A stretch of DNA of 64,000 nucleotides from assembly GCA_964016885.1 (NCBI GenBank), contig OZ024741.1, forward strand, positions 17,050,001 to 17,114,000. The letters run 5' to 3'. Under the pieces are notes generated by a model, which was not told where the DNA came from, did no database searches, and saw nothing but the letters and a program-made list of their open reading frames with translations. Below are positions 314-61,698 of the stretch, one piece after another. A program made the translations under genes and the position numbers. How positions within the stretch are numbered: position 1 is the first letter of the stretch; every line of letters begins with the position of its first letter. Source of the DNA: Eledone cirrhosa (Eukaryota).

Positions 314-685
314 ATATTTATTAAAATAACAGATTAAAGTTTAAGCAAAGAATCGCTGCTTTCACCCTTAACGGGATCTTCTGAAACTAACAAAGTCAAT
401 CTGTAAACGTATTATATTCGTTTTTTCCCGTTCTTTGCCAGCGAACGTTTCCACGAACCAAAGTATCGTCTTCCTGTCTTCCTCCGGTTGCAACGGTTTT
501 TGAAATATCCAGTTCTGCGTTTACAGATTGACTTTGTTAATTTCAGAAGATCCCGTTAAGGGTGAAAGCAGCGATTCTTTGCTTAAACTTTAATCTGTTA
601 TTTTAATAAATATTTGCTCTACGGTTCTTATATATTTGATATATATTTTCCTTATCGAGCCCTCGTTGGATTTTATTATTATTAC
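314..685 (+). mobile_element. Fold-back PLE pLTR-like relic (family A) in (TA)n, with hammerhead-like motif
   Basis: Near-perfect inverted arms at ~314-409 and ~518-613, flanked by (TA)n. The same family recurs at 3025-3380, 15339-15415 and 24890-24990. Carries a hammerhead-like fold at 539-589. Confidence 0.65.
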
Positions 686-1879: not shown

Positions 1880-2240
1880 CGGTATACAAGGATGCAATTC
1901 ACGTCTAGCACTCAACGCCATATTCCCAATGACAGGGGTGACGGAGTATATTAATAAAGATGAAAATGCGAAGTTGAAAATGTTAGAGTCCTTTATTAAT
2001 TGAGCCGTTATATATCAATGGCGATACACATCGTGATCTCTTCAGACAGCAAAAATTGATTAAAAGGTAACAGTTCTGAGGCAATTTTATTTGAAGGGGG
2101 CGGACAACTAAAGCAAAAACACCTTTTTTTTAGTCCGCTCCATTCCAAATAAAATTGCCTCAGAAATGTTACCTTTTAATCAATTTTTGCTTTTTGCTGT
2201 CTGAAGAGATCACGATGTTTATCGTCATTGAAATATATAT
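1880..2240. mobile_element. Head-to-head fold-back PLE pLTR-like relic with two hammerhead-like cores
   Basis: Inverted arms at ~2010-2107 and ~2131-2240. CTGAAGA at 2201-2207 (+) and 2039-2045 (-). Confidence 0.55.
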
Positions 2241-2849
2241 ATATATATATCAACACACACACATATATATATATATATCAACACATCAACACAAACATAT
2301 CTCTACCCCCGGAGGTTTCATCCAGGGGTAGAGATATGTTTTGATGATTTGGGTATGTTTATGTACATTTTTTCTTCTAACTTTTATTCTGTACCTAATT
2401 GTGTATGGTTAACTATATGTCTAGTCATTTTCTACAGGCTATCAGAAATACTAGGTAAATCTTCTGTGGCTGTGAATCGCGGATAAAGGGTATCATTTAT
2501 TTATCTATTATTTCTTCATAGGGATATTTTAAACTTATAACCTCGTTTAAATGATTTTTTATGTGGTTGATTATGCTGATTGGGAGAAGAAATACTCTAT
2601 ATATTTTATCTAATGATTCTATGGACTTACTTTCTTATATATTGCTCTGATTGTTGATTATTTAATTAATTAATTCGTCATTGAGCCACACCGTGAATGG
2701 TTGCCAGAAACCATATATATATATATGGCTCTGTCTAGTTTATGTGTATGTAAACTTCTAAATTTTATATATATATATATATATATGTCCCAACGCTCTG
2801 ATACCATAAACACTATAAACACAGAGCTGGCATATCTAAGAACTGACTA

Positions 2850-2905
2850 ACTGCCTGATGAGGTCATAGCCATTCAATGGCTTCAATCGAAATATATATA
2901 GCAGT
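2850..2905 (+). ncRNA. Minimal type I hammerhead ribozyme candidate
   Basis: actgc-CTGATGA-[stem II containing agcca/tggct, G-C closing pair]-GAAA-TATATA-TA-gcagt. Stem I is actgc/gcagt, stem III is palindromic, and the predicted cleavage triplet is AUA. Confidence 0.7.
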
Positions 2906-2956
2906 AAATAAAGGATTATAAGTTCATGCAATTGACTTATGTTTCGTCACTATATA

Positions 2957-3024: not shown

Positions 3025-3380
3025 AATAATAGTAAATTTGAAGACTAAAATCCAAAGAGGGCTTGATAAGGATAAATATATATCAAATATATATGAACCG
3101 TAGAGCAAATATTTATTAAAATAACAGATTAAAGTTTAAGCAAAGAATCGCTGCTTTCACCCTGAAACTAATAATGACGTATTATATTCGTTTTTCCCCC
3201 GTTCTTTGCCAAGGAACGTTTCCACGAACCAAAGTATCGTCTTCCTGTATTCCTCCGGTTGCAACGTTTTTTTGAAATATTCACTTCTGCATTCACAGAT
3301 TGACTTTGTTAGTTTCAGAAGATCCCGTTAAGGGTGAAAGCAGCGATTCTTTGCTTAAACTTTAATCTGTTATTTTAATA
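3025..3380. mobile_element. Second fold-back copy of pLTR-like family A
   Basis: Highly similar to 314-685 with different arm lengths; (TA)n on both sides. Confidence 0.65.
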
Positions 3381-6783: not shown

Positions 6784-6872
<89 letters not shown>

Positions 6873-6925
6873 TATATACATATATATACATATATATATA
6901 TATATTGGAATATCCCAATATCACC

Positions 6926-6984
<59 letters not shown>

Positions 6985-6985
<1 letters not shown>

Positions 6986-7150
6986 GAAGTAATTCCGTCG
7001 GAAAGGTCCAGGAAAAAAGAGTGCTCTATGTAGGTTACAGAGCTTAATAGTTATGTAATAAACAACATAAGATAATTATTTCATTTACCAGTGGTTTCTT
7101 GAAAGCAAACAAAATTTGCTTTCAATCATCAGAATGAAAAAATCCTGGTG
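6985..7150 (-). mobile_element. PLE pLTR-like relic in (TA)n carrying an intact hammerhead
   Basis: Flanked by long (TA)n tracts. Its 3' part (gctctgt...acatagagcactctttttt) is related to 28513-28628. Confidence 0.6.
7079..7139 (-). ncRNA. Type I hammerhead ribozyme
   Basis: The minus strand reads TTTCATT-CTGATGA-TTGAAAGCAAA-ttttg-TTTGCTTTCAA-GAAA-CC-act-GG-TA-AATGAAA. Stem I is 7 bp, stem II is 11 bp, the core is intact, and the triplet is GUA. Confidence 0.85.
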
Positions 7151-7500
<350 letters not shown>

Positions 7501-12891: not shown

Positions 12892-13330
12892 CTAGCTGAG
12901 TAGCCCGTCGTTTCCGGGAAATAATCACAATATTATGCGTTTATTTCAAATTTTGTTTTATTCCACGTCAGACCATCTCTTCCCTGAAGTATAGTCCCCT
13001 TGATAAGGACGGATTTCTTTATTAATTGGGTCAATTTATAAACAATGTTTGTTGTTTTTCCATCTGGTGCATAGATGTAAAGATTTTTCTGACTTCCTAC
13101 TCTTGAACATCCAACGTAAAGCTGACAATAGGTGAAGCAAGGCTCTTCAACGTGTAAACCTGCAATCGAAAATGTTTGTCCTTGTGATTTGTTGATGGTC
13201 ATGGCTAAACTAAGACTCACTAGAAATTGAACTTGTTTGAATTGATATGGGACATCAGTGGAGATAAGAGGAATTCTTGGAACGAACACATCCTCAATCA
13301 AAAGTATATATATTTCTTTCACACTGCCAC
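12892..13330 (-). mobile_element. Helitron 3' fragment with RepHel Pif1-type helicase C-terminus
   Basis: ORF 12933-13322 has AMTINKSQGQT and QLYVGCSRV (Pif1 helicase motifs V and VI). The 3' end has the hairpin cccg-gaaacga-cggg, then CTAG followed by T. Confidence 0.9.
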
Positions 13331-13614
13331 ATTTTGAACTGTTTTCATGAATGTTAATTTTTATTGTGATATCTTGGTGAAGGATTTATGTATTACTTGT
13401 TCTTAACATTATTTTGAGTTGATTATATCAGCATTTTAATAAACTCTGATGACACCCGTGGTATATTCACTAATCGCGAATTATTAAATAAAATAATTCA
13501 CTAGAGGTAACGTAACCAGGATAGAAACAATTGTCAGTATATAAATGTCTACCTTAGTTCTTTGGTTTATATAAATATATCTGTATATATAATATATATA
13601 TATATATAATACAA

Positions 13615-16965: not shown

Positions 16966-17766
16966 TGTTTCTTTTATTTGCCACCAGGGCATCAAAAGTG
17001 GGACAAATACAATGGGGGGAGTTTACAAAACAAGGCGTCCTCAATAAGGAGGAGGCAATAACAATATATAAAAATAAAATAAAATATAACAAAAAATAAA
17101 ATGTATAACAAAGTCCTCAATAGAGAGGAGGCGCCTTGGGGGGTCGTACACACCCCCCCAAAAAGTATGCAACCCTTTTCCTCGGGAGCACAGAGAAGGG
17201 GTGCTCCCTTGGTCTTTCATCTTCCTCACCTATAGTCTGATGTAGAGTGAAGGCCCATTCACACGGGCCATTCTCGCCACTTTCACCCATCTTTCATAAA
17301 AACGGCTGGGATGCAGCACCTCTCTCTCCATCCTGATCCTTCTTCCGAAATGATATCGGAAGAAACGGACCAGTTGTTGGCCAGAGAGAAAGGTGCCTGA
17401 CCTCAGTCCTTTCAGACGCGTCCACCATACAACCTCTTTCGCCATGGCTATTACGCACAGAAACACCGCCTCTGCTTCATCTTTGAAGGGGGGAGGCAGC
17501 TTGATCATTACAATAGACTCGGTGGTCAACCGGATCGGTCCCACCCTTGACAGCAGTTGTTCGACATAGCCCCACAGATCGGCAATGTCCGAGCAGTGTA
17601 CCAATGCGTGTGCAACGGTTTCCTCGTCGCACACGCATCTGGGACAGATCTTTTTCGAGGGGTCCCTACCCGGGCGCCCGTGTCTGTAGAGCCTTTCTCG
17701 AACGAGCAGAGCCCTTCTGTAGCATTGCCAGGGACCTCTGGAAGTTATCCATGGGTCCCGGGCTGG

Positions 17767-17767
<1 letters not shown>
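16966..17767 (-). mobile_element. Tx1-clade non-LTR retrotransposon, 5'-truncated copy A
   Basis: Encodes the ORF2 C-terminal zinc finger (CPRC...ETVAHALVHC) and stops at 17230. The 3'UTR is homologous to 47585-47815. (GATA)n on both sides. Confidence 0.9.
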
Positions 17768-17816
<49 letters not shown>

Positions 17817-17817
<1 letters not shown>

Positions 17818-20370
17818 TTCTTTATTAGCCACAAGGGCGCAACAAGAAAGGGGACAATACAAAGACATGCCGGGGATTTTACATACAGTCGTGTAAAAAA
17901 TATAAAAACAAACAATTTCAACAATCGAAATCCCCAATAGGGGGGAGGCGCCACAAATGGGTTGTTTAATACCCCGTCGATAGAACAACCCTCAACTCAA
18001 GGAGCGTGTTGTGCAAGTGCTCCTTTCTTCCTTTTGCTCTCTTCCTCAACCTACAGGCTTATAAACAGAGAAGGCCCAATCACTCGGGCCATTTTCGCTT
18101 CATTCACCCACCTTTCAGTAAATTTACTGGGGTGCAGTGCCTCTCTCTCCACCCTGATTCTCCTTCTAAAGTGATACTTAAAGAATGGAATCAATTGTTG
18201 TCCGGAGAGAAAGGCATCTGTCCTCAGTCCTCTCAACCTCGTCCACCATATAACTTCTTTCACCATAGCCACCGTACAGAGGAAAACCACCTCTCTTTCG
18301 TTTTTGAAAGAGTCTGGCGGTTTGATCCTTACTATGGACTCGGCAGTCAACTGTATTTGTCCCATACGCGACAGCAGTTGTTCTGCATAGTTCCACAGGT
18401 CGCTTACGCCCGGGCAGTGTACAATTGCGTGCAGAACTGTTTCAATGTCCTGCGCACATCTTGGACACGTCCTCTTGGAAGGATCCCTGCCAGGGCGTCC
18501 GTGCCTGTAGATCTTGTCACGAACCGGTAGAGCTCCTCGGTAGCACTGCCAGGCCAGGGACCTCTGGAAGTTGTCCATAGGTCCCGGGCGGAAAGTCCTA
18601 CCAAACATACTGGTGAGCTCATCGTCTTCGACGCCCAGAGTCTCTCCGAGCACGTCGTCGCCCTTGTAACGTACAATCCCTCTATAGAATGTCGAAGTGG
18701 AGTATCCACTGATTGCTGCGCCCGCTTGCCAGAGGACTGTGAGCGCCTGAGCGCATTCAATGTGCCAGGCGCCCATCGTTTTCGGTCTTTTCTTCACCCA
18801 GGACTGCAGCTCCGTTAGCGAGACGAGCTGTGGGAAAGCCTGTCTCACAAACGGTGCCCACACCGGTTGGGGGTCGGTGAGGAATACCTGGAGATGCCGC
18901 AGCCTCAGCGCATGTTTGCGCATCATCAGCCACGGCATTCCCAGCCCTCCGTTGGAAGGGTGCTGACAGCAGACGGATCTCCTCACCAGCGGAGCCTGCT
19001 TCTTCCACAGAAACTGGAAGAGCATGCGTTCCATCTTGGCGAGGTGTTCACGGGGACAAGGTACGACAGTCAAGCGGTAGTAGATGACGGACGCTATGAA
19101 AGTGTTCGCCACCTCCGCTCGACCTTTCAAGGACAGTTTGCACTCTGCCCACTTCTGAGTGAGTGCAAACACCTTGGCCGTGACCTCGTTCCAGTTTTTC
19201 TCCACCTGGAGGTCTGGACCGAATCAGACCCCGAGCAATTTCACCGGTCCGTCCGTCCAGCGTCCAACGACGCTGTCGGATGTCATCGGTTTGCCTCTCC
19301 ATGTACCGAGTTGCAAACCGACAGACTTATCTGGGTTTAGTTTTGCTCCCGTCAGCGTTTCGTATTTTTTCAGTATGTTGCCGATCACCCCGATTTCCGA
19401 GGTGCTCGACACCATTACCGTCATGTCGTCGGCATAAGCCGACGCCGCTTTGCGCAGTCCCGGTTCTAGGGGGATGCCCTGCAACAGCTCCAATTTCCGC
19501 AGTAGTGGCTCTAGAGTCAATACATACAGAATGGAGGAGAGAGGGCATCCCTGTCGAATGGAACGCGTGATTGCGAACGGCTCCGATAGGTAGCCGTTCA
19601 CCTTGACCCTCGAGCAGATGCTGGTGTGCATCGCCTCGATCCATCCTCTGAACACGGGACCGAAACCGGCCGCCATGAGAACCGCTTCCAAGTATCGATG
19701 GTCGACCCTATCGAATGCCTTAGACTGATCCAAGTTGATCAGAGCCCCACCGAAGCCGGGTTTACTACCCACCCTCTCTATGATGTATCGCATGAGGTGG
19801 AGGTTGTCGTGTATGGACCTGGTCGGGATTGCACACGTTTGCGCTTTCCCTACCAGGTTCTCGACGACAAGCGCCAACCTCGTCGCTAGCACCTTGGCCA
19901 AAATCTTTAACTCTGTGTTGAGCAGAGTTATGGGCCTGAAGTTGTTAATTTCGTCCCCCTTGTTCTCGTCTTTCCTGATCAGCATTACTACGCCCTTGCC
20001 TGCAGAACTGGGAATTCTCCCGTTCTGCTGCCAATTGCAGTAGACGGCTTCGAGGACGCCAGAGAACAAGTCCGGCATGCCTATGTAAAATTCGTAGGGT
20101 AGACCATCTAGACCGGGTGACTTGCGTTTCCCGCAGCGGCCCAGAGCGTCCCGTATCTCAGTGTCCGTGATCGGTCTTTCGCAGAACTCGGCGTCCGTGT
20201 TCGAGAGACGCGGCAGGCCGTCGAGGTATGAACTAAAGTCCATTGCCCCGTTCGGCTCACCGTCGTTCTGCTCAAACAGTCGCGCAAAGTGCCGCTGAAA
20301 GGCCGCGCACATTTGCTTGGGGTCAAGTAGCACGCGTCCGTTTTGGTCTTTCAAAGACCGAATCGTGGAT
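17817..20370 (-). mobile_element. Tx1-clade non-LTR retrotransposon, 5'-truncated copy B
   Basis: Contains RT (QGCPLS, YADD) and the C-terminal CCHC finger; (GATA)n on both sides. Confidence 0.93.
18051..20370 (-). pseudogene. Tx1 ORF2 (RT plus zinc finger), 5'-truncated, one in-frame stop
   Basis: ORFs 19224-20393 and 18051-19205 are in frame and split by a TGA where copy C has TGG (VKLLGV*FGPD). Motifs KSPGLDG, FRPITLLN, DQSKAFDRV, YADD. Confidence 0.92.
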
Positions 20371-20484
20371 GATAGATAGATAGATAGAAACACAGTTAGG
20401 TAGATAGATATATTGATAGATAGTTAAATATATATATATGTGTGTGTGTGTGTGAGAGAGAGAGAGAGTGTGTGTGGTGTGTGT

Positions 20485-28358: not shown

Positions 28359-28411
<53 letters not shown>

Positions 28412-28442
28412 ATTAGAAAGTGAACAACACAAAATATAACTA

Positions 28443-28510
28443 CTCGATTACCAAAGGTTTCTGGATCCCAGATAATATTAATATACGTCTGGATCGTTCA
28501 TCAGACAGAG
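28443..28510 (-). ncRNA. Type I hammerhead candidate within fold-back relic 28411-28628
   Basis: ctctgt-CTGATGA-ac-gatccaga...tctgggatc-ca-GAAA-cc-ttt-gg-TA-atcgag. The opposite arm has acggag, which pairs fully with ctctgt. Confidence 0.65.
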
Positions 28511-28642
28511 ATGAAACCTTTGGTAACGGAGTAGTTATATTTTGTGTTGTTCACTTTCTAATTAAATAGCTCTGTTCTATACATAGAGCACTCTTTTTTA
28601 CTTTGCTTTTTCTTCGGAATTACCTAACGAATATATATATAT

Positions 28643-42318: not shown

Positions 42319-44159
42319 ATGGCGGAAAAGATGGCAGACATGTCTGCCATTAGCTCTGCCACGCCCCCCAAGTCTGAAGAACAAAACATAATTACAACAA
42401 AATTAGACAACGAAACAAACAAGGAAAATGAAAAAACAAATGTTAAGGAAAATGAGCAAACGGAAAACAAACAAACAGAAAATAATACAAATAACAACAG
42501 GGCAACTTTCGCCCAGAAAACAAAACAATCCATTACATACACACCAATTGACCTAACGGCCGCCAGAGAAAAACTGGCCGAAGCAAAGAAACACATTGTT
42601 TTGGGGGAGAACGGAATGTTTTCCATTAACCCCCCCCCCCCCCAGAATTCAAGAAAGCGATAACAGAGAACACAGTTCTCTTCAGAACAATCCTAAACCA
42701 AACAAGAAAGCCAGCACAGCCCAGCCAAATGGAGATAGAGTTGGTCCTAAAAGACTATATGAAGAATATTCTCTTCATACGAAAGGACCGACTCTATGGC
42801 AGCATTTCGGTCCTAACAAAAGACAAGGAAACGGCGGAGAAGCTTTCCCTAAGCCCACTCTCATCGACAACATACAGCTTCTATCCCTCCTACATGGGTA
42901 GAAGAACACAGAGAGTAAAAATACAAACAATGCTGCCCACAATGGACTTCTGGTGGGCTATTGCTGGCTTCATAGACATGGGCGAGGACACAGTGCTGTC
43001 AATGGGGAAGGCATCCGGAGATGCGTTCCTGGGAATGGGCCTCGACCTACTAGTCCAAATGAGGCCCGAAAGAATAGCACAAATGCCGGATCGCATCTGG
43101 CTGGATGAGCTCACCCCAATAGATATAATTGTAGAGGGGAGAAGACCAGCATGCTATTTATGCACGGAAAGGGGACACATTAAGGCTAACTACCCGAAAC
43201 GTATCCCCCCAAAAGGACTATTGCCCACACCCATCACAGACAGTACACCAACACCACCCACCTCCAAAAATACACTAATACCACACACAGCAAACAAAAT
43301 ACAAACACCACCAAGCACAACACAAACATCACCACCACCAGCACCAAACACAAGCACGACACAAAAATCACCACCACCATCACCAACACAAACACCACCA
43401 CCACCATTACCAACCACAAGCACGACACAAACAGCACCACCACCACCACAAAACGCATTCCAAACAAAAAAAAAAAAAACAGCAACAAATCTACCCCTCC
43501 CGCAAAAAAACAACAACCAGACACGACGTCCCTCCCACCTAGCGCTGAAGAGTTTCCCCCAACTTCTGAAGAAGAAGGAGGAGAAACCTTCAGACAAGTT
43601 AAAAGAAAAAAAAGAAAGCACGCACCCAGCACACCACAAATAACCCACACACAAACACCAACTCCAATAAAAAACACCCCACCCTCAACAAACAAAAATA
43701 AATCTGCGCCTCCCCTCTCCGAAACATTGACAGCATCACAAAAAAAAGACATTGCAATACACATATATAAATAAAAAAAACAAAAAACTGTTTAAATTAA
43801 TAAACAATAGCCCTTTGGTGCAGACCGAAGGGCCAAACTTTATCTCAACAGAGAACTTCACCTATTTAAAAATGATAAAGGTCCCTCTGGACCTTTATCG
43901 TTCCTTAAAAGAACAATTTAGACAGGACGTGAGCCCCCCCTGTTTAAAACCGTTAAATCGCGTCCTCTTGAAAGATTTCCCCATAACCTCCCCTCTCCCC
44001 GACACAACTCCAAACACCCCAACCCCACCACACTCGGGCACCCCCACACCACCACAAAACATCCCTCCACCCAACACACCTGACGCCATGGGAATTACAC
44101 AGCCCGGAGAGGTAGGTGCTTTTCTTTCTTCACTTTCAACACCAAAAAAGATCAGTTGA
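42319..44159 (+). pseudogene. Tx1 ORF1 (gag-like, zinc knuckle, Pro/Thr-rich), frameshifted
   Basis: ATG at 42319. Frameshift in the C homopolymer at ~42630-42643 and probably in the A run near 43470. The knuckle CYLCTERGHIKANY is CX2CX4HX4C with the last C changed to Y. Confidence 0.75.
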
Positions 44160-47100
44160 GAGTTGGCTGTTTGAACGCGCGTGGCCTGGGCTCAGCTTGG
44201 AAGCAAGCAAAGCTACTAAGTGACCTCAGGTCACGAAGTATAGATGTGATGGTTGTTTGCGAGAGTCGGATCAGCAGCGTGCGACAGCTGGCTCCCGCCT
44301 TCGATGACATTGAGATGCACGCATCTCTGTCAACCCGGAGGCGGGGGGGGGGAGTTGCTGTACTACTGGATAAACGTCTGGCTCTCGACGTACAGATTGT
44401 TCACTCGGACCCGGGGGGTCGAATACTGGTGCTGGACGTCGGAGGCGGTGAAGGCGGGGCTTTCAGACTGGTCGGTCTTTATGCCCCCTTCGGGGCTGAA
44501 AGAGCCGACTTCTTCCAGCGACTGGAGACTTTTCTAGGAACGTCGCGTTCCCTGCTTTTAGTGGGGGACTGGAATGGAATCCTAGATGCGCGTTGGGACT
44601 ATGCAGGGGCATGTCCCGATAGAGGGGGGTGTAGCAGCCTCAAAGGGTTACTCGATTGATTCGACCTGGTCGATAGATTTCGACTAGATTGTCCAACTGC
44701 GCCAACCTGGACCTGGGCAAACCGCAGTGGACAATCTAGATCGTACCTAGATAGGTTTTTGGTTAGGAGTAAGGATAGGGACGTATTTAGTTGTCCAGAA
44801 TTGATCATGGTTGGCTATTCAGATCACAAATTAGTGACCTGCGTGGTCACCCTTGATAGAACGCATAGACAGGGTCCCGGTTACTGGAAGATGAACTTGT
44901 CCTTGCCGGCAAAGAAAGATTACAGGAACCGGATTAGTAGCTTAGTTAAGATGCGGTTGACGGGAGCGATCGTCAACAGTAGGTGGTGGGTATCTCTAAA
45001 GAGAGAGATTAGAGTAAGTTCGATAGGTTACAGTAAGGAACTAGCGGCGAATAGAAATAGGAAGGAAAGGGAGTTAACAGATAAACTAGAAGAGGCGATT
45101 AGGAGCGGAGACGTAGCCAGAGTGTTAGCGGCGAGAACGGCGTTGAGCCAGTTCTTTGACGCGAAGCACGAAGGCTGCGTTGTCCGAAGTAAAATACGTG
45201 CTTTAGGAAACGAGGGGACCAAAGCTGTTAGCTGGGCCCGCGTGACAGAAGCCAAGAGTGGGATTAAATCCACCATTCGGTCTTTGCGAGACCAGGATGG
45301 ACGGGTGATCCTTGAACCTGAACGGATGTGCCAGGCCTTTCAAAGGCACTTTGCTCGATTGTTCGGAGGGGGCGTGGGGCCAGACGGGGATGTGGACTTC
45401 GGTCCATACCTCGACGGTCTACCGCGTCTTTCGAGCGGCGAAGCGGAGTGCTGCGAAAGGCCAATCACAGCCACTGAAATCGGGGAAGCGCTCAGCCAAT
45501 GCAGCAGACGCAAATCTCCGGGTCTCGATGGTCTACCATACGAACTTTATTTAGCTATGCCGATCTTGTTCTCCGAACTCCTCGAGGCTATCTATTGCAA
45601 CTGGCAACAGAACGGGAGAATTCCCTGTTCTGTGACCAAGGGCGTGGTCACGCTAGTGAGGAAGGACGAGAGCAAGGGGGACGACTTAAGTAACTTTAGG
45701 CCCATAACTCTGCTGAATGCAGAGTTACAGATTTTGGCCAAGGTGTTGGCGAAGAGGTTGGCGCTTGTGGTGGGTGGTTTGGTGGGAGACGCGCAGACAT
45801 GCGCTATCCCGTCCAGGTCCATTCACGACAACCTCCACCTCATGCGATACATCATAGAGAGGGTTGGCAACGAACCCGGCTTTGGTGGGGCCCTGATCAA
45901 CTTGGATCAATCTAAGGCGTTCGATAGGGTCGACCATGGTTACCTGGATGCGGTGCTAGCGGCGGCGGGCTTCGGACCCGTTTTCAGGGGCTGGATTTCT
46001 GCCATGCACAGTGGCAACATCTACTCTAGGATTAAAGTAAACGGCTACCTCTCGGAGCCGTTTCAAATCACCCGGTCCATCAGACAGGGGTGCCCCCTCT
46101 CCTCCCTTCTGTACGTATTGACTCTCGAGCCACTGCTGCGGAAGTTGGAGTTGCTGCGGGGCATACCCCTGGAACCGGGATTGCACAAAGCGGTCTCGGC
46201 CTATGCCGACGACGTAACAGTAATGGTGGCGGACGCCTCGGAAATCGGGGCGATCGCCACCCTACTGGAGGAATACGAAAGGCTGACGGGGGCTAGGCTG
46301 AACCGGGACAAGTCAGTCGGTTTGCAACTCGGAACGTGGAGGGGCAAACCGATGCCGTTAGACGGTGTCGTCGGGCGGTGGACGGAGGGCCCGGTGAAGC
46401 TGCTCGGGGTCTGGTTCGGACCGGACCTCCAGGTGGAGAAGAATTGGGGCGAGGTGACGAGCAGGATGTTTGCGCTGACCCAGAAGTGGGCCAAGTGCAA
46501 ACTATCACTGAAAGGTCGGGCGGAGGTGACGAACGCTTACATAGCGTCCGTCATCTGCTACCGCCTGACCGTCGTGCCTTGCCCCAAGGAAAAGATCACC
46601 ATCATGGAACGCATGCCCTTCCAGTTCCTCTGGAAGAAGCGGCCTCCCATGGTGAGGAGATCCATCTGCTGCCAGCACCCTTCGAAAGGAGGGCTGGGTA
46701 TGCCGTGGCTGTTGATGCGTAGGCACGCATTGAGGCTACGGCATCTACAGGTATTCCTCACCGGTCAGCCGGTGTGGGCCCCGTTTGTGAGGCGAGCCTT
46801 CCCACAGCTCGTCTCGCTCACCGAGCTGCAATCCTGGGTGAAGCAAAGACCGAGAAAACTGGGCAACTGGCACACCGAGTGTGCCCAGGCGCTCACGGCT
46901 ATCTGGCAAGCGGACCCGACTGTCAGTGGAGAATCCACCTCGACATTCTATAGAGGGCTGGTGGCTAGCAGGGGCGACGACACCCTTGGAGAGTCGCTAG
47001 GCATGGAGGAGGACGAACTGGCCAGCCTGTTATGTAGAACTTTCGGCCCGGGACCCATGGACAACTTCCAGAGGTCCCTAGCCTGGCAGTGTTACCGGGG

Positions 47101-47584
47101 GGCTCTGCCCGTTCGAGAAAAGCTCTACAGACACGGGCGCCCGGGCAGGGATCCAGCGAAAAAGATCTGTCCCAGATGCGTGCGCGACGAGGAAACCGTT
47201 GCGCATGCACTGGTACACTGCCCGGGCGTTGCCGATCTGTGGGGCTACGTCGAACGACTGCTGTCGCGTGTGGCGCCGATTCGATTAACCGCCGAGTCTG
47301 TGGTGAACATCAAGCCGCCGCCTCCCTTCAGAAACGAAGCTAAGGCGGTCTTTTTGTGCGTAATAGCCATGATGAAAGAGGTTGTGTGGTGGACGCGCCT
47401 GAAAGGTCTGAGGTCGGGTGACTTTCTCTCCGGCCATCACCTGGTTTACTTCTTCCGATACCACTTCGGAAGAAGGATCAGGATGGAGAGAGAAGTGCTT
47501 GGCCCCAGACAGTTTTATGAAAGGTGGGTGAAAGAAGCGAGAATGGCTCGTGTAAATGGGCCTTCTCTCTACATTGTTCTGTAG
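44156..47584 (+). pseudogene. Tx1 ORF2: APE endonuclease, reverse transcriptase, CCHC finger; one in-frame TGA
   Basis: LNARGL, VGDWN, YLDRF and SDHK (APE); QGCPLS and YADD (RT); CPRC..HALVHC. ORFs 44156-44659 and 44759-47584 are in frame and split by TGA at 44657-44659. Confidence 0.93.
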
Positions 47585-50085: not shown

Positions 50086-50301
50086 AAGTATGACCCCGAC
50101 GGCAGAGCTCAAGCCGTTTCGACGGCTATTTCTGGACTAAATTAGAATTTTTTCAAATAGCCGTCGAATCGGCTTGAGCTCTGCCGTCGGGGTCATACTT
50201 TTTCCTATTCCCACTCTACTACACTAAGTATTGAGTACTCTGGTGCGTTATGATCCACCTGGTTCCTTACCACAATTCCTTTGTTATATATATATATATA
50301 T

Positions 50302-50334
<33 letters not shown>

Positions 50335-50336
<2 letters not shown>

Positions 50337-51170
50337 CGAAGGAAATGTGGTAAGGAACCAGGTGGACCATAACGCACCAAAGTACTCAATACTTAGGGTA
50401 GTAGAGTGGGTAATAGGAACGAGTAGGACCCCGACGGCTGAGCTCAAGCCGTTTCGACGGCTAATTCTGGACTAAATGAAAATTTTTATCCTGGTATATG
50501 AATAGCCGAGCTTATATATATATATAAATTATTTCGTATTAGTCTCGGGACTCTGAATTATTATTTCGTGGTAGTTTCTTTAGTATTTTGGCCCCCTACT
50601 TGTTGACCCGTCACCGTAAGATATACTCGGTTGATTACTAATACCTCTTAAAAGGGTCTCATTATAATTCCGTCCCACCTAGTAAACCTTTCTATAGTCT
50701 AGCAGTACCAGTGAGAGACTTGATAGCTGTCCTTAGGTTATAGTAACCAGAAATTGTTTTTTTTTAAATATTTAATTGTTTTTTTAACATTCTCGGTATT
50801 CTTCTATATATTTACCCCATATTGTTTTACTTATTGTTTCGACTTCCCTCCCCCTCCCTAGTATACTTCCTTGACCTCCTGCCCTGCTCTAGTTGGCACT
50901 ATCAACGCACTACTGGGTTTCCTCCAACCCCTCTCTCTCTTTCTTCTACTGGGAGGTTCAGCTACCCTTTCCTTCCACAAATTGCCATGATAGAATTATG
51001 TGTCTCAACAACAAACTTTTGACCAATCCTTGTGACAATCACTTTTACCATATATGGAATTACCCCCTGAGAAGCTCGGCTATTCATATACCAGGATAAA
51101 AATTTTCATTTAGTCCAGAATTAGCCGTCGGAACGGCTTGAGCTCAGCCGCCGGGGTCTTACTCGTTCCT
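50335..51170. mobile_element. pLTR-like family C, inverted pair
   Basis: 50335-50512 (-) and 51062-51170 (+) are inverted homologues. Another fold-back copy is at 50092-50285. Confidence 0.65.
51062..51157 (+). ncRNA. Type I hammerhead-like fold, family C (mutated copy)
   Basis: acccc-CTGAGAA-g..cggcta...tagccg..c-GGAA-cggct-tgagctc-agccg-CC-ggggt. Sister copies have GAAA and GTC. Confidence 0.55.
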
Positions 51171-59021: not shown

Positions 59022-60264
59022 TAAACGGAATAGAAAATGCTGACAAATTGTTCACAGTTGAAAAATGGTTTAATTAGGAATAAAAGAGTATTAGTGATTG
59101 TATGGGTTAGTATTCAGTTGTGGTTTTAAGTTTTTAAGTTTTTACCGGTTGCGCATTTCTAAATGCTTTTCAAAAATAATTTTGAGATAGAGTGTCCGTG
59201 CTGTTTGCTCTGATCTGATTAGTTTTGGGAATTCTACCTGTTTTTATGTTAAAAAAGTGGCTCCAGCGTTACTTTGGTGTTGCAAAAATTCTTGTGGTCA
59301 AAACAATTTTGATTGGTCGGTAGAGGTCATGTGAATGTAAAAAATTGATTTTGCGCCAAGACTGTTTTTATGGACACAAAGATTGTTTAATATTTACATC
59401 TACACTACTTTTCAACTGGTTTCATCTAGATCACCATAAACTGTCATATTTGTGGATGTGTATAGGCCTTCATTTGGAAATAAATGTTCCTGGTTGAAAT
59501 TTAGTTTGATCAAAAAGCTCTTCCATACATCTCCACACACAACCCCCTCAACAATGAGGCCTTTGACACCATCCTCCAGAACATCCCTGTGTTGAAAAAG
59601 GACCATAGAATGAACCAAATTCTACGAACACACGATATCATAAAGAGCAAAAGACAATCTAAGTCAATGAAAAACATCCTAACACATGCCAAAGTACTGC
59701 CAACCACAACAACGAAACCCATAGTAAAAAAATGCGATAGACCCAACTGTGGCATTTGCATCAACCTAATAGAGGGTTCGGAATTCTATTTCAAAGATGG
59801 ACAACGTTTTATAGTAAAACACAATTTCACATGTGCATCGGAAAATCTAATATATGTATTAACTTGCTCAGGTTATCGAGAACAATACATAGGCCAGACC
59901 AAAAACAGCCTCCGCCAACACATGACTGTGCATAGATCCCAAATTAAAATACGGGAATACAGGAAAATACCACTGAGTGAACACATTGATACCTGTGCCG
60001 CCCCAAATCGTGCCGCCCCAAATCATCCCAACTTCAGAATCTTTCCCCTCTACAAATTTAAAGATAATGCCACCCACACCCAGCGCATCAGCAAGGAATC
60101 TTACTTCATTAACAAATACGGACCCCGTCTAAACACTTCTCTCTAAGACGAACCCACAACATACACACGTCAACATACATACCTACATCAGCACACATCT
60201 CTACCCACATATAAACACAATGACATACGTAAACACACATGCTCTATGGTGCAACACAAAAAAA

Positions 60265-61622: not shown

Positions 61623-61698
61623 CTTGCTGACTGAGGACCCTGTGGACTTTTACACTACACATTTCAGTGGCGAAACGAAATAGATTCGTATCAGCAAG
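61623..61698 (+). ncRNA. Type I hammerhead ribozyme candidate
   Basis: CTTGCTGA-CTGAGGA-ccctg...cagtggc-GAAA-CGAA-ataga-TTCG-TA-TCAGCAAG. Stem I is 8 bp, stem III is 5 bp, the triplet is GUA, and the base of stem II is imperfect. Confidence 0.78.

What the first reader, a model, noticed from the sequence alone, without database searches (positions are those of the whole stretch)
7079..7139. Essentially perfect type I hammerhead ribozyme on the minus strand
Seen: 7-bp stem I, intact CUGAUGA and GAAA, perfect 11-bp stem II, ACC/GGU stem III and a GUA site. The only deviation is U-A at the base of stem II. A diverged relative at 28443-28510 keeps the topology with entirely different stem I and II sequences (tttcatt/aatgaaa versus ctctgt/acggag), which is natural covariation. 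This is the best candidate for live self-cleavage.
Basis: partly seen in the sequence, partly recalled or inferred. Interest (0 to 1): 0.78.

Follow-up and report, generated by a model that had tools for sequence, protein, structure and literature searches.

The report
Penelope retroelement hammerhead with end-marking hairpins
This is a real hammerhead (self-cutting RNA) motif, but it is one of about ten thousand related copies left by a known kind of jumping gene and is predicted to cut poorly on its own; the less ordinary part is a pair of small conserved hairpins behind it that likely tell the element's reverse transcriptase where to start copying.

Summary
The hammerhead at 7139-7079 (minus) is there as described and is not chance. 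It is not a stand-alone ribozyme. It sits in a 170-bp, 5'-truncated 3' end of a young Hydra-clade Penelope-like retrotransposon, inserted in (TA)n. The genome holds 10,676 pattern matches; sister copies run into an RT/GIY-YIG ORF with the Hydra motifs. Stem III is a 3-bp hairpin inside a 9-nt palindrome, the type reported to cleave weakly and as a dimer or with protein help, so "perfect" and "best candidate for live self-cleavage" are overstated. The U-A at the base of stem II is not decay: this pair is relaxed across the clade. New here: across Hydra-type elements from marine metagenomes the hammerhead is followed by two copies, about 62 nt apart, of a bulged hairpin (GCUC-Y...R-UN-GAGC-ACU) with a compensatory pair, and copies end just 5' of one hairpin or the other (35 of 36 unbiased copies). 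The hairpins likely position reverse-transcription start sites, which would explain the Penelope "tail". Activity and expression are untested.

The parts
6983..7153 (-). 5'-truncated 3' end (solo pseudo-LTR) of a Hydra-clade Penelope-like retrotransposon, family A; both ends blurred by a few bases of TA microhomology
   Evidence: 98-99% identical dispersed copies; sister copies L002, L017, L021 continue into the RT/EN ORF
7079..7139 (-). Type I hammerhead motif
7133..7139 (-). Stem I, 5' strand (pairs with 7085-7079)
7126..7132 (-). Core CUGAUGA (C3-A9)
   Evidence: intact in 40 of 40 family copies scored
7099..7125 (-). Stem-loop II, 11 bp; U10.1-A11.1 at its base, G-C two pairs further out
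   Evidence: pair probabilities 0.65-1.0; C.A 24, U-A 15, C-G 1 of 40 copies
7087..7098 (-). Core GAAA and stem III; 7095-7087 is a 9-nt palindrome with a central C.C mismatch, predicted to pair between two molecules
   Evidence: hairpin +0.4, self-duplex -8.2 kcal/mol; active dimer -35.6 vs -26.6 for two monomers
7085..7086 (-). Predicted cleavage site, 3' of GUA (A17 = 7086)
   Evidence: sequence plus hammerhead numbering; not tested
7044..7050 (-). Short-end site (about +39 from the cut): where many family copies and inverted arms stop; inferred first RT start site
   Evidence: loose ends at 7047 running into (AT)n in public contigs
7018..7043 (-). Hairpin 1 (GCUC-U...A-UA-GAGC-ACUCU), conserved across Hydra-type elements
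   Evidence: also visible in published Hydra-1_Ajap, Hydra-2_Ajap, Hydra-2_Amil consensus text
6979..6983 (-). Long-end site (+103 to +107): end of this copy, 2-6 nt before the place where hairpin 2 begins in read-through copies; inferred second RT start site
7151..7350 (.). (TA)n target microsatellite, 5' side of the element
6788..6982 (.). (TA)n target microsatellite, 3' side of the element
28410..28628 (.). Fold-back solo end of a second Hydra family (B): inverted arm ending at the hairpin-1 site, direct arm ending at the hairpin-2 site
28443..28510 (-).
28569..28594 (+). Hairpin 1 of family B

Best explanation
The motif is the hammerhead of a Hydra-clade Penelope-like retrotransposon, carried in a truncated 3'-end copy inserted in a TA repeat, and it is predicted to cleave only weakly unless two copies pair or the element's protein helps. 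Shown: the motif, its dispersed young family, the link to an RT plus C-terminal GIY-YIG ORF with Hydra motifs, the palindromic stem III, and two discrete 3' ends each lying just 5' of a conserved bulged hairpin. Inferred: a tandem master element is transcribed through hammerhead, hairpin 1 and hairpin 2 into the next ORF; the ORF protein binds a hairpin, nicks (TA)n DNA and starts cDNA at a UA-containing site 0-6 nt 5' of the hairpin on RNA that is not cut at this hammerhead (the copy spans the cut site); early termination left this 170-bp copy. Inferred from other PLEs: the hammerhead processes tandem transcripts as a dimer through the stem III palindrome and is not needed for the insertion step. 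This solo copy most likely has no role of its own.
For: Family and ORF link; 22 of 150 scored protein hits lie in stop-free frames of 711-718 aa; all 7 loci fetched hold a 714-718-aa ORF with RWK, DKT, YRDD, CxCx5C, CxxC and CxH, the Hydra signature of PMC8557442; that ORF is 93% identical to the one behind a family-A hammerhead. Dimer: energies; the fourth stem III pair, which was not required when hits were picked and cannot close a 1-2-nt loop, is complementary in 42 of 45 foreign hammerheads with 26 double changes. U-A is not decay: it is in the intact-ORF subfamily; only 76 of 10,676 genomic matches have C11.1; U.U 24, G-C 17, A-U 4, G-U 3, C.A 2, other 2 of 52 foreign cores; U.U forms are in File S2 of PMC8557442. 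Hairpins: 41 of 46 foreign tails vs 278 of 9,200 shuffles; fifth pair C-G 36 or U-A 27 of 68; 123 sense vs 4 antisense regex hits. Ends: 35 of 36 unbiased copies at -12..+2 (31 at -4..+2) of a hairpin; 9 of 10 same-contig foreign pairs at -5..0. Two internal RT start sites and a dispensable, protein-assisted hammerhead were shown for the Anolis PLE.
Against: No cleavage, binding or expression data. Clade assignment rests on motifs and by-eye likeness to Hydra-1_Obim, not on a tree; Pfam gave no family for the ORF pieces or their relatives at curated cut-offs and PDB no match. The intact-ORF subfamily is 4.1-4.6 kb, longer than the '<3 kb' typical of Hydra. Helix III here has three pairs and ViennaRNA puts it at about 0.5 in the isolated 61-mer, so some monomer cleavage is possible. 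A TA dinucleotide lies within 8 nt before 42 of 43 first and 20 of 26 second hairpins, so microhomology both blurs the ends and could contribute to their choice. The C-G/U-A change partly follows hairpin 1 vs 2 (25 U-A/14 C-G vs 2/20). In this copy the lowest-energy fold of hairpin 1 has no bulge. One cross-contig pair (L165/L166) diverges 37 nt past hairpin 1, unexplained.
Confidence: 0.8

Rival explanations
1. One reading: this copy is an efficient monomeric ribozyme that cuts a transcript of this locus in the cell, possibly with a host role.
For: Intact core, 7-bp stem I, 11-bp stem II, a stem III one pair longer than the 1-2 bp of most animal hammerheads; near-active fold is the lowest-energy fold of the bare 61-mer. 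The U-A form is better paired than the C.A form of 24 of 40 copies.
Against: A local hairpin that buries C3-U4-G5 out-competes stem I once flanks are added; no G10.1-C11.1; no evident loop II/stem I contact; PLE hammerheads tested so far were weak or protein-dependent; the copy is one of thousands and shows nothing special; no host exon was evident in the window or 10 kb either side.
Confidence: 0.1
2. In these lineages the hammerhead fold is kept as a protein-binding or folding element and hardly cleaves at all.
For: The 10.1-11.1 pair is freed in the whole group and some families have two mismatches there; inserted copies span the cut site; cleavage was dispensable for insertion and no reads ended at the cut in Anolis.
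Against: All catalytic core positions are kept in 45 of 45 foreign motifs aligned (partly by selection) and across at least five families here; position 17 is A in this family; one internal duplicate in the long 3' UTR has drifted to GUG while the terminal copies keep GUA.
Confidence: 0.15
3. The twin hairpins do not position the reverse transcriptase; ends are set by TA microhomology or by endonuclease recognition of the tail as DNA, and the hairpins serve transcription, translation or packaging.
For: TA precedes most hairpins; the Drosophila Penelope tail was needed for endonuclease recognition as DNA (as summarised in PMC11167929); both hairpins lie in the 5' UTR of the downstream ORF.
Against: The family-A tail has 14 TA sites but ends fall only at the ones before the hairpins; end position follows the hairpin while its distance from the cut varies from 34 to 70 nt among hosts; variable loop length and a one-sided bulge fit a single-stranded fold better than a duplex site.
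Confidence: 0.3

Closest known systems
Hammerheads of Hydra-clade Penelope-like elements (Craig et al. 2021, PMC8557442, File S2), closest by eye Hydra-1_Obim of Octopus bimaculoides
   Same: Type I topology near the 3' end; four-pair stem III palindrome around one base (ACCA-N-UGGU in Hydra-1_Obim and here); often no G10.1-C11.1; (TA)n target; ORF motifs RWK, DKT, CxCx5C, CxxC, CxH.
   Different: A different family (its core motif was not found in the supplement); longer stem II; intact subfamily 4.1-4.6 kb with a microsatellite-filled 3' UTR; the paper's main text does not mention a hairpin or stem-loop in the tail.
Minimal hammerheads of metazoan PLEs (Cervera and de la Pena 2014, PMC4209133)
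   Same: In pLTRs, mostly as solo copies or close inverted pairs; long helix II; palindromic 15.2-16.2 region; proposed to work as dimers with low activity.
   Different: Here a 3-bp helix III can form; no unpaired base between 9 and 10.1; G10.1-C11.1 absent.
Poseidon PLE of Anolis (PAc; Frangieh et al. 2024, PMC11167929)
   Same: Two internal RT start sites 3' of the hammerhead that define the optional 'tail'; AT-rich target; copies span the cut site.
   Different: PAc starts within one AC-rich stem loop inside the ORF and its tail is of the 30-40-bp kind; here the tail is about 62-65 nt, lies before the ORF, and each end sits 5' of its own copy of a clade-wide hairpin.
Non-LTR retrozymes of animals (preprint 10.64898/2026.07.22.740005; PMC7229834 seen as listing only)
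   Same: Non-coding, type I hammerhead, derived from PLE pLTRs.
   Different: This copy is a single truncated end of an ORF-bearing family, not a tandem array.

Membership tests
Type I hammerhead ribozyme (broad) | Core CUGANGA, GAAA and NUH | tested here: met
   CUGAUGA, GAAA, GUA
Type I hammerhead ribozyme (broad) | Three helices, stem I open | tested here: met
   model of 45 foreign motifs gives 30.8 bits; covariation in relatives (hits were picked for pairing, so the percentages are inflated)
Type I hammerhead ribozyme (broad) | Mg2+-dependent self-cleavage 3' of H17 | not testable with these tools
   needs an assay
Canonical fast hammerhead (schistosome/viroid type) | G10.1-C11.1 pair | tested here: not met
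   U-A here; C11.1 in 76 of 10,676 genomic matches
Canonical fast hammerhead (schistosome/viroid type) | About 4-bp helix II whose loop contacts helix I | tested here: not met
   helix II is 11-12 bp; no Rfam hammerhead hit at E<=10; other tertiary contacts not tested
PLE minimal hammerhead (Cervera 2014) | Palindromic helix/loop III region | tested here: met
   9-nt palindrome, self-duplex -8.2 kcal/mol
PLE minimal hammerhead (Cervera 2014) | Extra unpaired base between A9 and G10.1, and G10.1-C11.1 | tested here: not met
   two bases on each side before the first G-C pair
Hydra-clade Penelope-like element | Single ORF, RT with C-terminal GIY-YIG endonuclease | tested here: met
   on linked copies, not the window copy: 714-718-aa ORFs; RT and EN read from motifs, Pfam gave no curated hit
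Hydra-clade Penelope-like element | RWK motif and DKT in place of DKG | tested here: met
   present in all full ORFs of 7 loci
Hydra-clade Penelope-like element | CxCX5C linker; CxxC and CxH around conserved E and N; no CCHH | tested here: met
   no cysteine between the two halves of the GIY-YIG core (read by eye)
Hydra-clade Penelope-like element | Hammerhead near the 3' end and insertion into (TA)n | tested here: met
Hydra-clade Penelope-like element | Generally under 3 kb | tested here: inconclusive
   hammerhead-to-hammerhead unit 4.1-4.6 kb in 5 loci because of a microsatellite-filled 3' UTR; the paper says 'generally'
Hydra-clade Penelope-like element | Placement in the Hydra clade on an RT tree | not tested
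   reference proteins seen only as supplement text; likeness judged by eye
Non-LTR retrozyme | Tandem units each with a hammerhead | tested here: not met
   single copy in the window and in L001

The most novel reading that the evidence does not exclude
Hydra-clade Penelope-like elements carry a clade-wide, duplicated RNA signal, a bulged hairpin GCUC-Y...R-UN-GAGC-ACU set about 45 and 105 nt behind the hammerhead cut site, that docks the telomerase-like reverse transcriptase and fixes where it starts. Two hairpins give the two start sites, hence the optional 'tail' and the asymmetric inverted pairs. It would be a portable 25-30-nt cis element for internal target-primed reverse transcription, and the hammerhead beside it a natural class that has given up the G10.1-C11.1 pair.
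Probability: 0.55. Interest if true: 0.65.

Novelty: new member of a known kind. Interest (0 to 1): 0.4.

Why it matters
The hammerhead alone adds little: hammerheads in PLE pseudo-LTRs, and in the Hydra clade, are published. Two things could matter. First, how PLE reverse transcriptases choose internal start sites is open since the 2024 Anolis work; the twin hairpins give a short, conserved, mutable candidate signal with a prediction (move the hairpin, move the end), and young intact ORFs exist to test it with. Second, the group shows at large scale that position 10.1-11.1 is free in these ribozymes, which explains why Rfam models miss them and offers natural variants for testing whether protein or dimer formation replaces that pair.

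Tried and rejected
Rfam: whole window at E<=1 listed only microsatellite-driven miRNA-type hits among the 150 of 236 shown; the 171-nt region gave no hammerhead family; four foreign loci gave nothing at gathering score. Pfam on 4 ORF pieces and 6 relatives: no family at its cut-off. PDB sequence search with the family profile: nothing. Viral contigs: no relative. Sequencing runs: no RNA holder listed; the four runs laid were contigs of unrecorded kind and say nothing on expression or cleavage. MAFFT did not align the hairpins' 5' arms, so pairs were counted on anchored sequences in scripts; 7 of 68 automatic hairpin calls were left out, 67 as mis-paired, and the unfiltered count (63 of 68) is the one to use. 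Cross-contig end comparisons (18 of 28 rows) mostly measure divergence and were not counted. I first read the G-C pair two steps out from the core as a new '2x2 loop' hammerhead class; rejected, because 10.2-11.2 is paired in 52 of 52 foreign cores (partly by selection) and such motifs are in File S2. A retrozyme reading was rejected (no tandem). The loop-III scan showed the native loop is only 9th of 64 for dimer gain, so energy alone does not prove selection for dimers. Lunse et al. 2017 could not be read; it may already describe these core variants.

Full report
1. Observation. The minus strand at 7139-7079 holds a complete type I hammerhead: 7-bp stem I, CUGAUGA, 11-bp stem II with U-A at its base, GAAA, a 3-bp stem III with a 3-nt loop, and GUA with the cut between 7086 and 7085. 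A descriptor scan found 2 hits in the window (this one and 2855-2900 plus); 0 of 200 shuffles gave a strict hit and 12 of 200 a loose one. Rfam's hammerhead families do not detect it. A model built from 45 hammerheads of other organisms scores it 30.8 bits (E about 5e-7, rough calibration), the best in the window.

2. What it belongs to. The window lies in a 3.0-Gb, microsatellite-rich genome. The 166 bases around the motif have 1,369 first-look candidates; the 40 scored are all full length, 39 of them other copies at 98-99%. Copies sit in (TA)n, often as inverted pairs, and several carry more upstream sequence, so the window copy is cut short at its 5' side. L002, L017 and L021 run on into an ORF with 1,222 relatives among 3,996 candidates in the protein collection. 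Of 150 scored genomic hits of its N-terminus, 22 lie in stop-free frames of 711-718 aa. All 7 loci fetched hold such an ORF with RWK, DKT, YRDD, CxCx5C, CxxC and CxH. These are the features given for the Hydra clade of Penelope-like elements (PMC8557442, section 11). The closest named element, by eye, is Hydra-1_Obim (supplement passages); no tree was built. An intact ORF is 93% identical over 307 aa to the one behind a family-A hammerhead and is framed by two hammerhead-bearing repeats 4.1-4.6 kb apart. A relaxed pattern finds 10,676 related motifs against 1 for the reversed control, in at least five families with different, self-complementary stems I and II. The 28410-28628 element is a second family (2,873 candidates, 39 other scored copies at 88-93%).

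3. Is it 'perfect' and live? Stem III alone is marginal (+0.4 kcal/mol), but its nine bases are a palindrome (self-duplex -8.2), and the active dimer is 9 kcal/mol below two monomers. Among 45 foreign motifs the fourth stem III pair, which cannot close a 1-2-nt loop and was not required in picking them, is complementary in 42, with 26 double changes. This is the architecture for which monomers showed no and dimers low activity (PMC4209133, parts 1-2 of 4 read; review PMC6765202, passages). The one full-length PLE tested had a hammerhead that cut only with protein and was not needed for insertion (PMC11167929, passages and half of the main section). With flanks, a local hairpin that buries C3-U4-G5 competes with stem I (probability 0.03-0.28 in element-sized folds, about 0.01 with the TA flanks). 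Against this, the bare 61-mer folds close to the active form, so some cleavage at high Mg2+ is quite possible. The U-A pair is not damage: family A has C.A 24, U-A 15, C-G 1 of 40, the intact-ORF subfamily has U-A, only 76 of 10,676 matches have C11.1 while 7,695 have G-C two steps out, and foreign cores have U.U 24, G-C 17, A-U 4, G-U 3, C.A 2, other 2 of 52. U.U forms are already listed as canonical in File S2 of PMC8557442. That G10.1-C11.1 matters for rate is recalled, not shown by a call; two papers opened for it gave no rates.

4. What lies behind the hammerhead. Family-A copies stop at two places, +38 to +42 (13 of 44) and +101 to +103 (31 of 44) from the cut (this set is biased to the long end by the query). 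Each place lies just before a hairpin beginning GCUC and ending GAGC-ACU; hairpin 1 is in the window copy (7043-7018) and hairpin 2 follows in read-through copies (227 matches, control 0). In 78 metagenome loci found by protein, 59 had a hammerhead. Of 46 distinct cores with long enough tails 41 had hairpin 1 and 27 a second call, against 278 of 9,200 shuffled tails; the pair above the two-base bulge was C-G 36 or U-A 27 of 68 calls, the bulge began with U in 65 and ACU followed in 56. The next two pairs also exceed shuffles (41 and 36 of 61 vs means of 20 and 16, after 7 calls were dropped; related sequences inflate such counts). The strict motif occurs 123 times on the sense and 4 times on the antisense strand; spacing is 55-83 nt, median 62. 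In copies picked by the hammerhead alone, 35 of 36 end at -12 to +2 of a hairpin (19 at hairpin 1, 16 at hairpin 2; 31 within -4 to +2; 1 had no reference; two pairs are arms of one insertion), and 9 of 10 same-contig foreign pairs end at -5 to 0, the tenth being a contig end. Over all fetched own-genome copies it is 108 of 111. The same hairpins are visible in published sea-cucumber and coral Hydra consensus text. Caveats: TA lies within 8 nt before 42 of 43 first and 20 of 26 second hairpins, so microhomology blurs and may help choose the ends, though 14 TA sites in the family-A tail are available; the compensatory change partly tracks hairpin 1 versus 2; in this copy an unbulged register is equally open.

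5. Mechanism. Shown: motif, family, ORF link, palindrome, two ends, hairpins. Inferred: a tandem master is transcribed through the junction; the ORF protein binds a hairpin, nicks (TA)n and primes cDNA just 5' of it on RNA uncut at this hammerhead; use of hairpin 2 for one end and hairpin 1 for the inverted arm gives the 62-65-nt tail. The window copy started at the hairpin-2 site and stopped after about 170 nt. The hammerhead likely trims tandem transcripts as a dimer or with protein help. Nothing suggests a role for this solo copy; no host exon was evident nearby.

6. Known versus new. Hammerheads in PLE repeats and in the Hydra clade are known; this is a new family member. I did not find the twin hairpins in print: the words hairpin and stem-loop do not occur in the main text of PMC8557442, and searches listed no paper on them. 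Figures are not visible to me, Lunse et al. 2017 was not held, the supplements of PMC11167929 were not read, and Repbase notes are outside the library, so prior notice is possible. The preprint on retrozymes was read in part 1 of 5. Two earlier AI notes touch this: one files a Hydra hammerhead as ordinary, one guesses that hairpins after a PLE RT mark its start; neither is support.

7. Verdict. Real motif, ordinary identity, activity overstated; the associated hairpin pair is the part worth a test. Interest 0.4.

Noticed in passing
window 2848-2907 (+): A second, unrelated type I hammerhead-like motif with G10.1-C11.1 and an A/U-only palindromic stem III, followed after about 55 nt by (TA)n; 22.4 bits with the Hydra model. 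Probably the end of another PLE family.
   Followed up: partly
window 61624-61697 (+): Weaker hammerhead-like motif (CUGAGGA ... C-GAAA, longer stem III, GUA), next to (TA)n; 14.8 bits, E 0.07.
   Followed up: no
window 336-390 (-) and 3309-3363 (+): Two copies of a repeat end with a degenerate hammerhead-like core, ending in (AT)n; 16.4 bits each.
   Followed up: no
window about 7350-7480 (-) and 50205-50415: Another abundant repeat end that stops in (TA)n directly upstream of the finding; at 50205-50415 it forms an inverted pair around (TA)n. It recurs beside many fetched loci.
   Followed up: no
window 59505-60146 (+): 213-aa frame with a CxxxxCxxC linker and a GIY-YIG core containing two cysteines: the endonuclease end of a Neptune-like PLE, by motif only.
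   Followed up: no
window 42630-47584 (+) and 17230-20423 (-): Two non-LTR (L1/Tx1-like, label recalled) elements with endonuclease and RT frames; the plus-strand one has a 974-aa open frame.
   Followed up: no
L209-L211, L213, L215, inside the long 3' UTR: The young intact-ORF subfamily carries an internal second hammerhead copy about 400-500 nt after the stop codon, with GUG at the cleavage triplet: a dead duplicate, or a possible dimer partner in cis.
   Followed up: partly
L246 (G000:C2:169702700-169703700): A tandem array with a 183-bp period made of hairpin 1, hairpin 2 and the 5' UTR but no hammerhead; suggests the hairpin region alone can be copied repeatedly.
   Followed up: no
L020 about 2050-2350 (+): A distant Hydra-type family in the same genome whose two hairpins both end in GAGC-UAA(U/A)U instead of GAGC-ACU, so the 3' flank changes in concert within an element.
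   Followed up: partly
window 12933-13385 (-): Helicase-like fragment (motifs of Pif1/Helitron type, label recalled).
   Followed up: no
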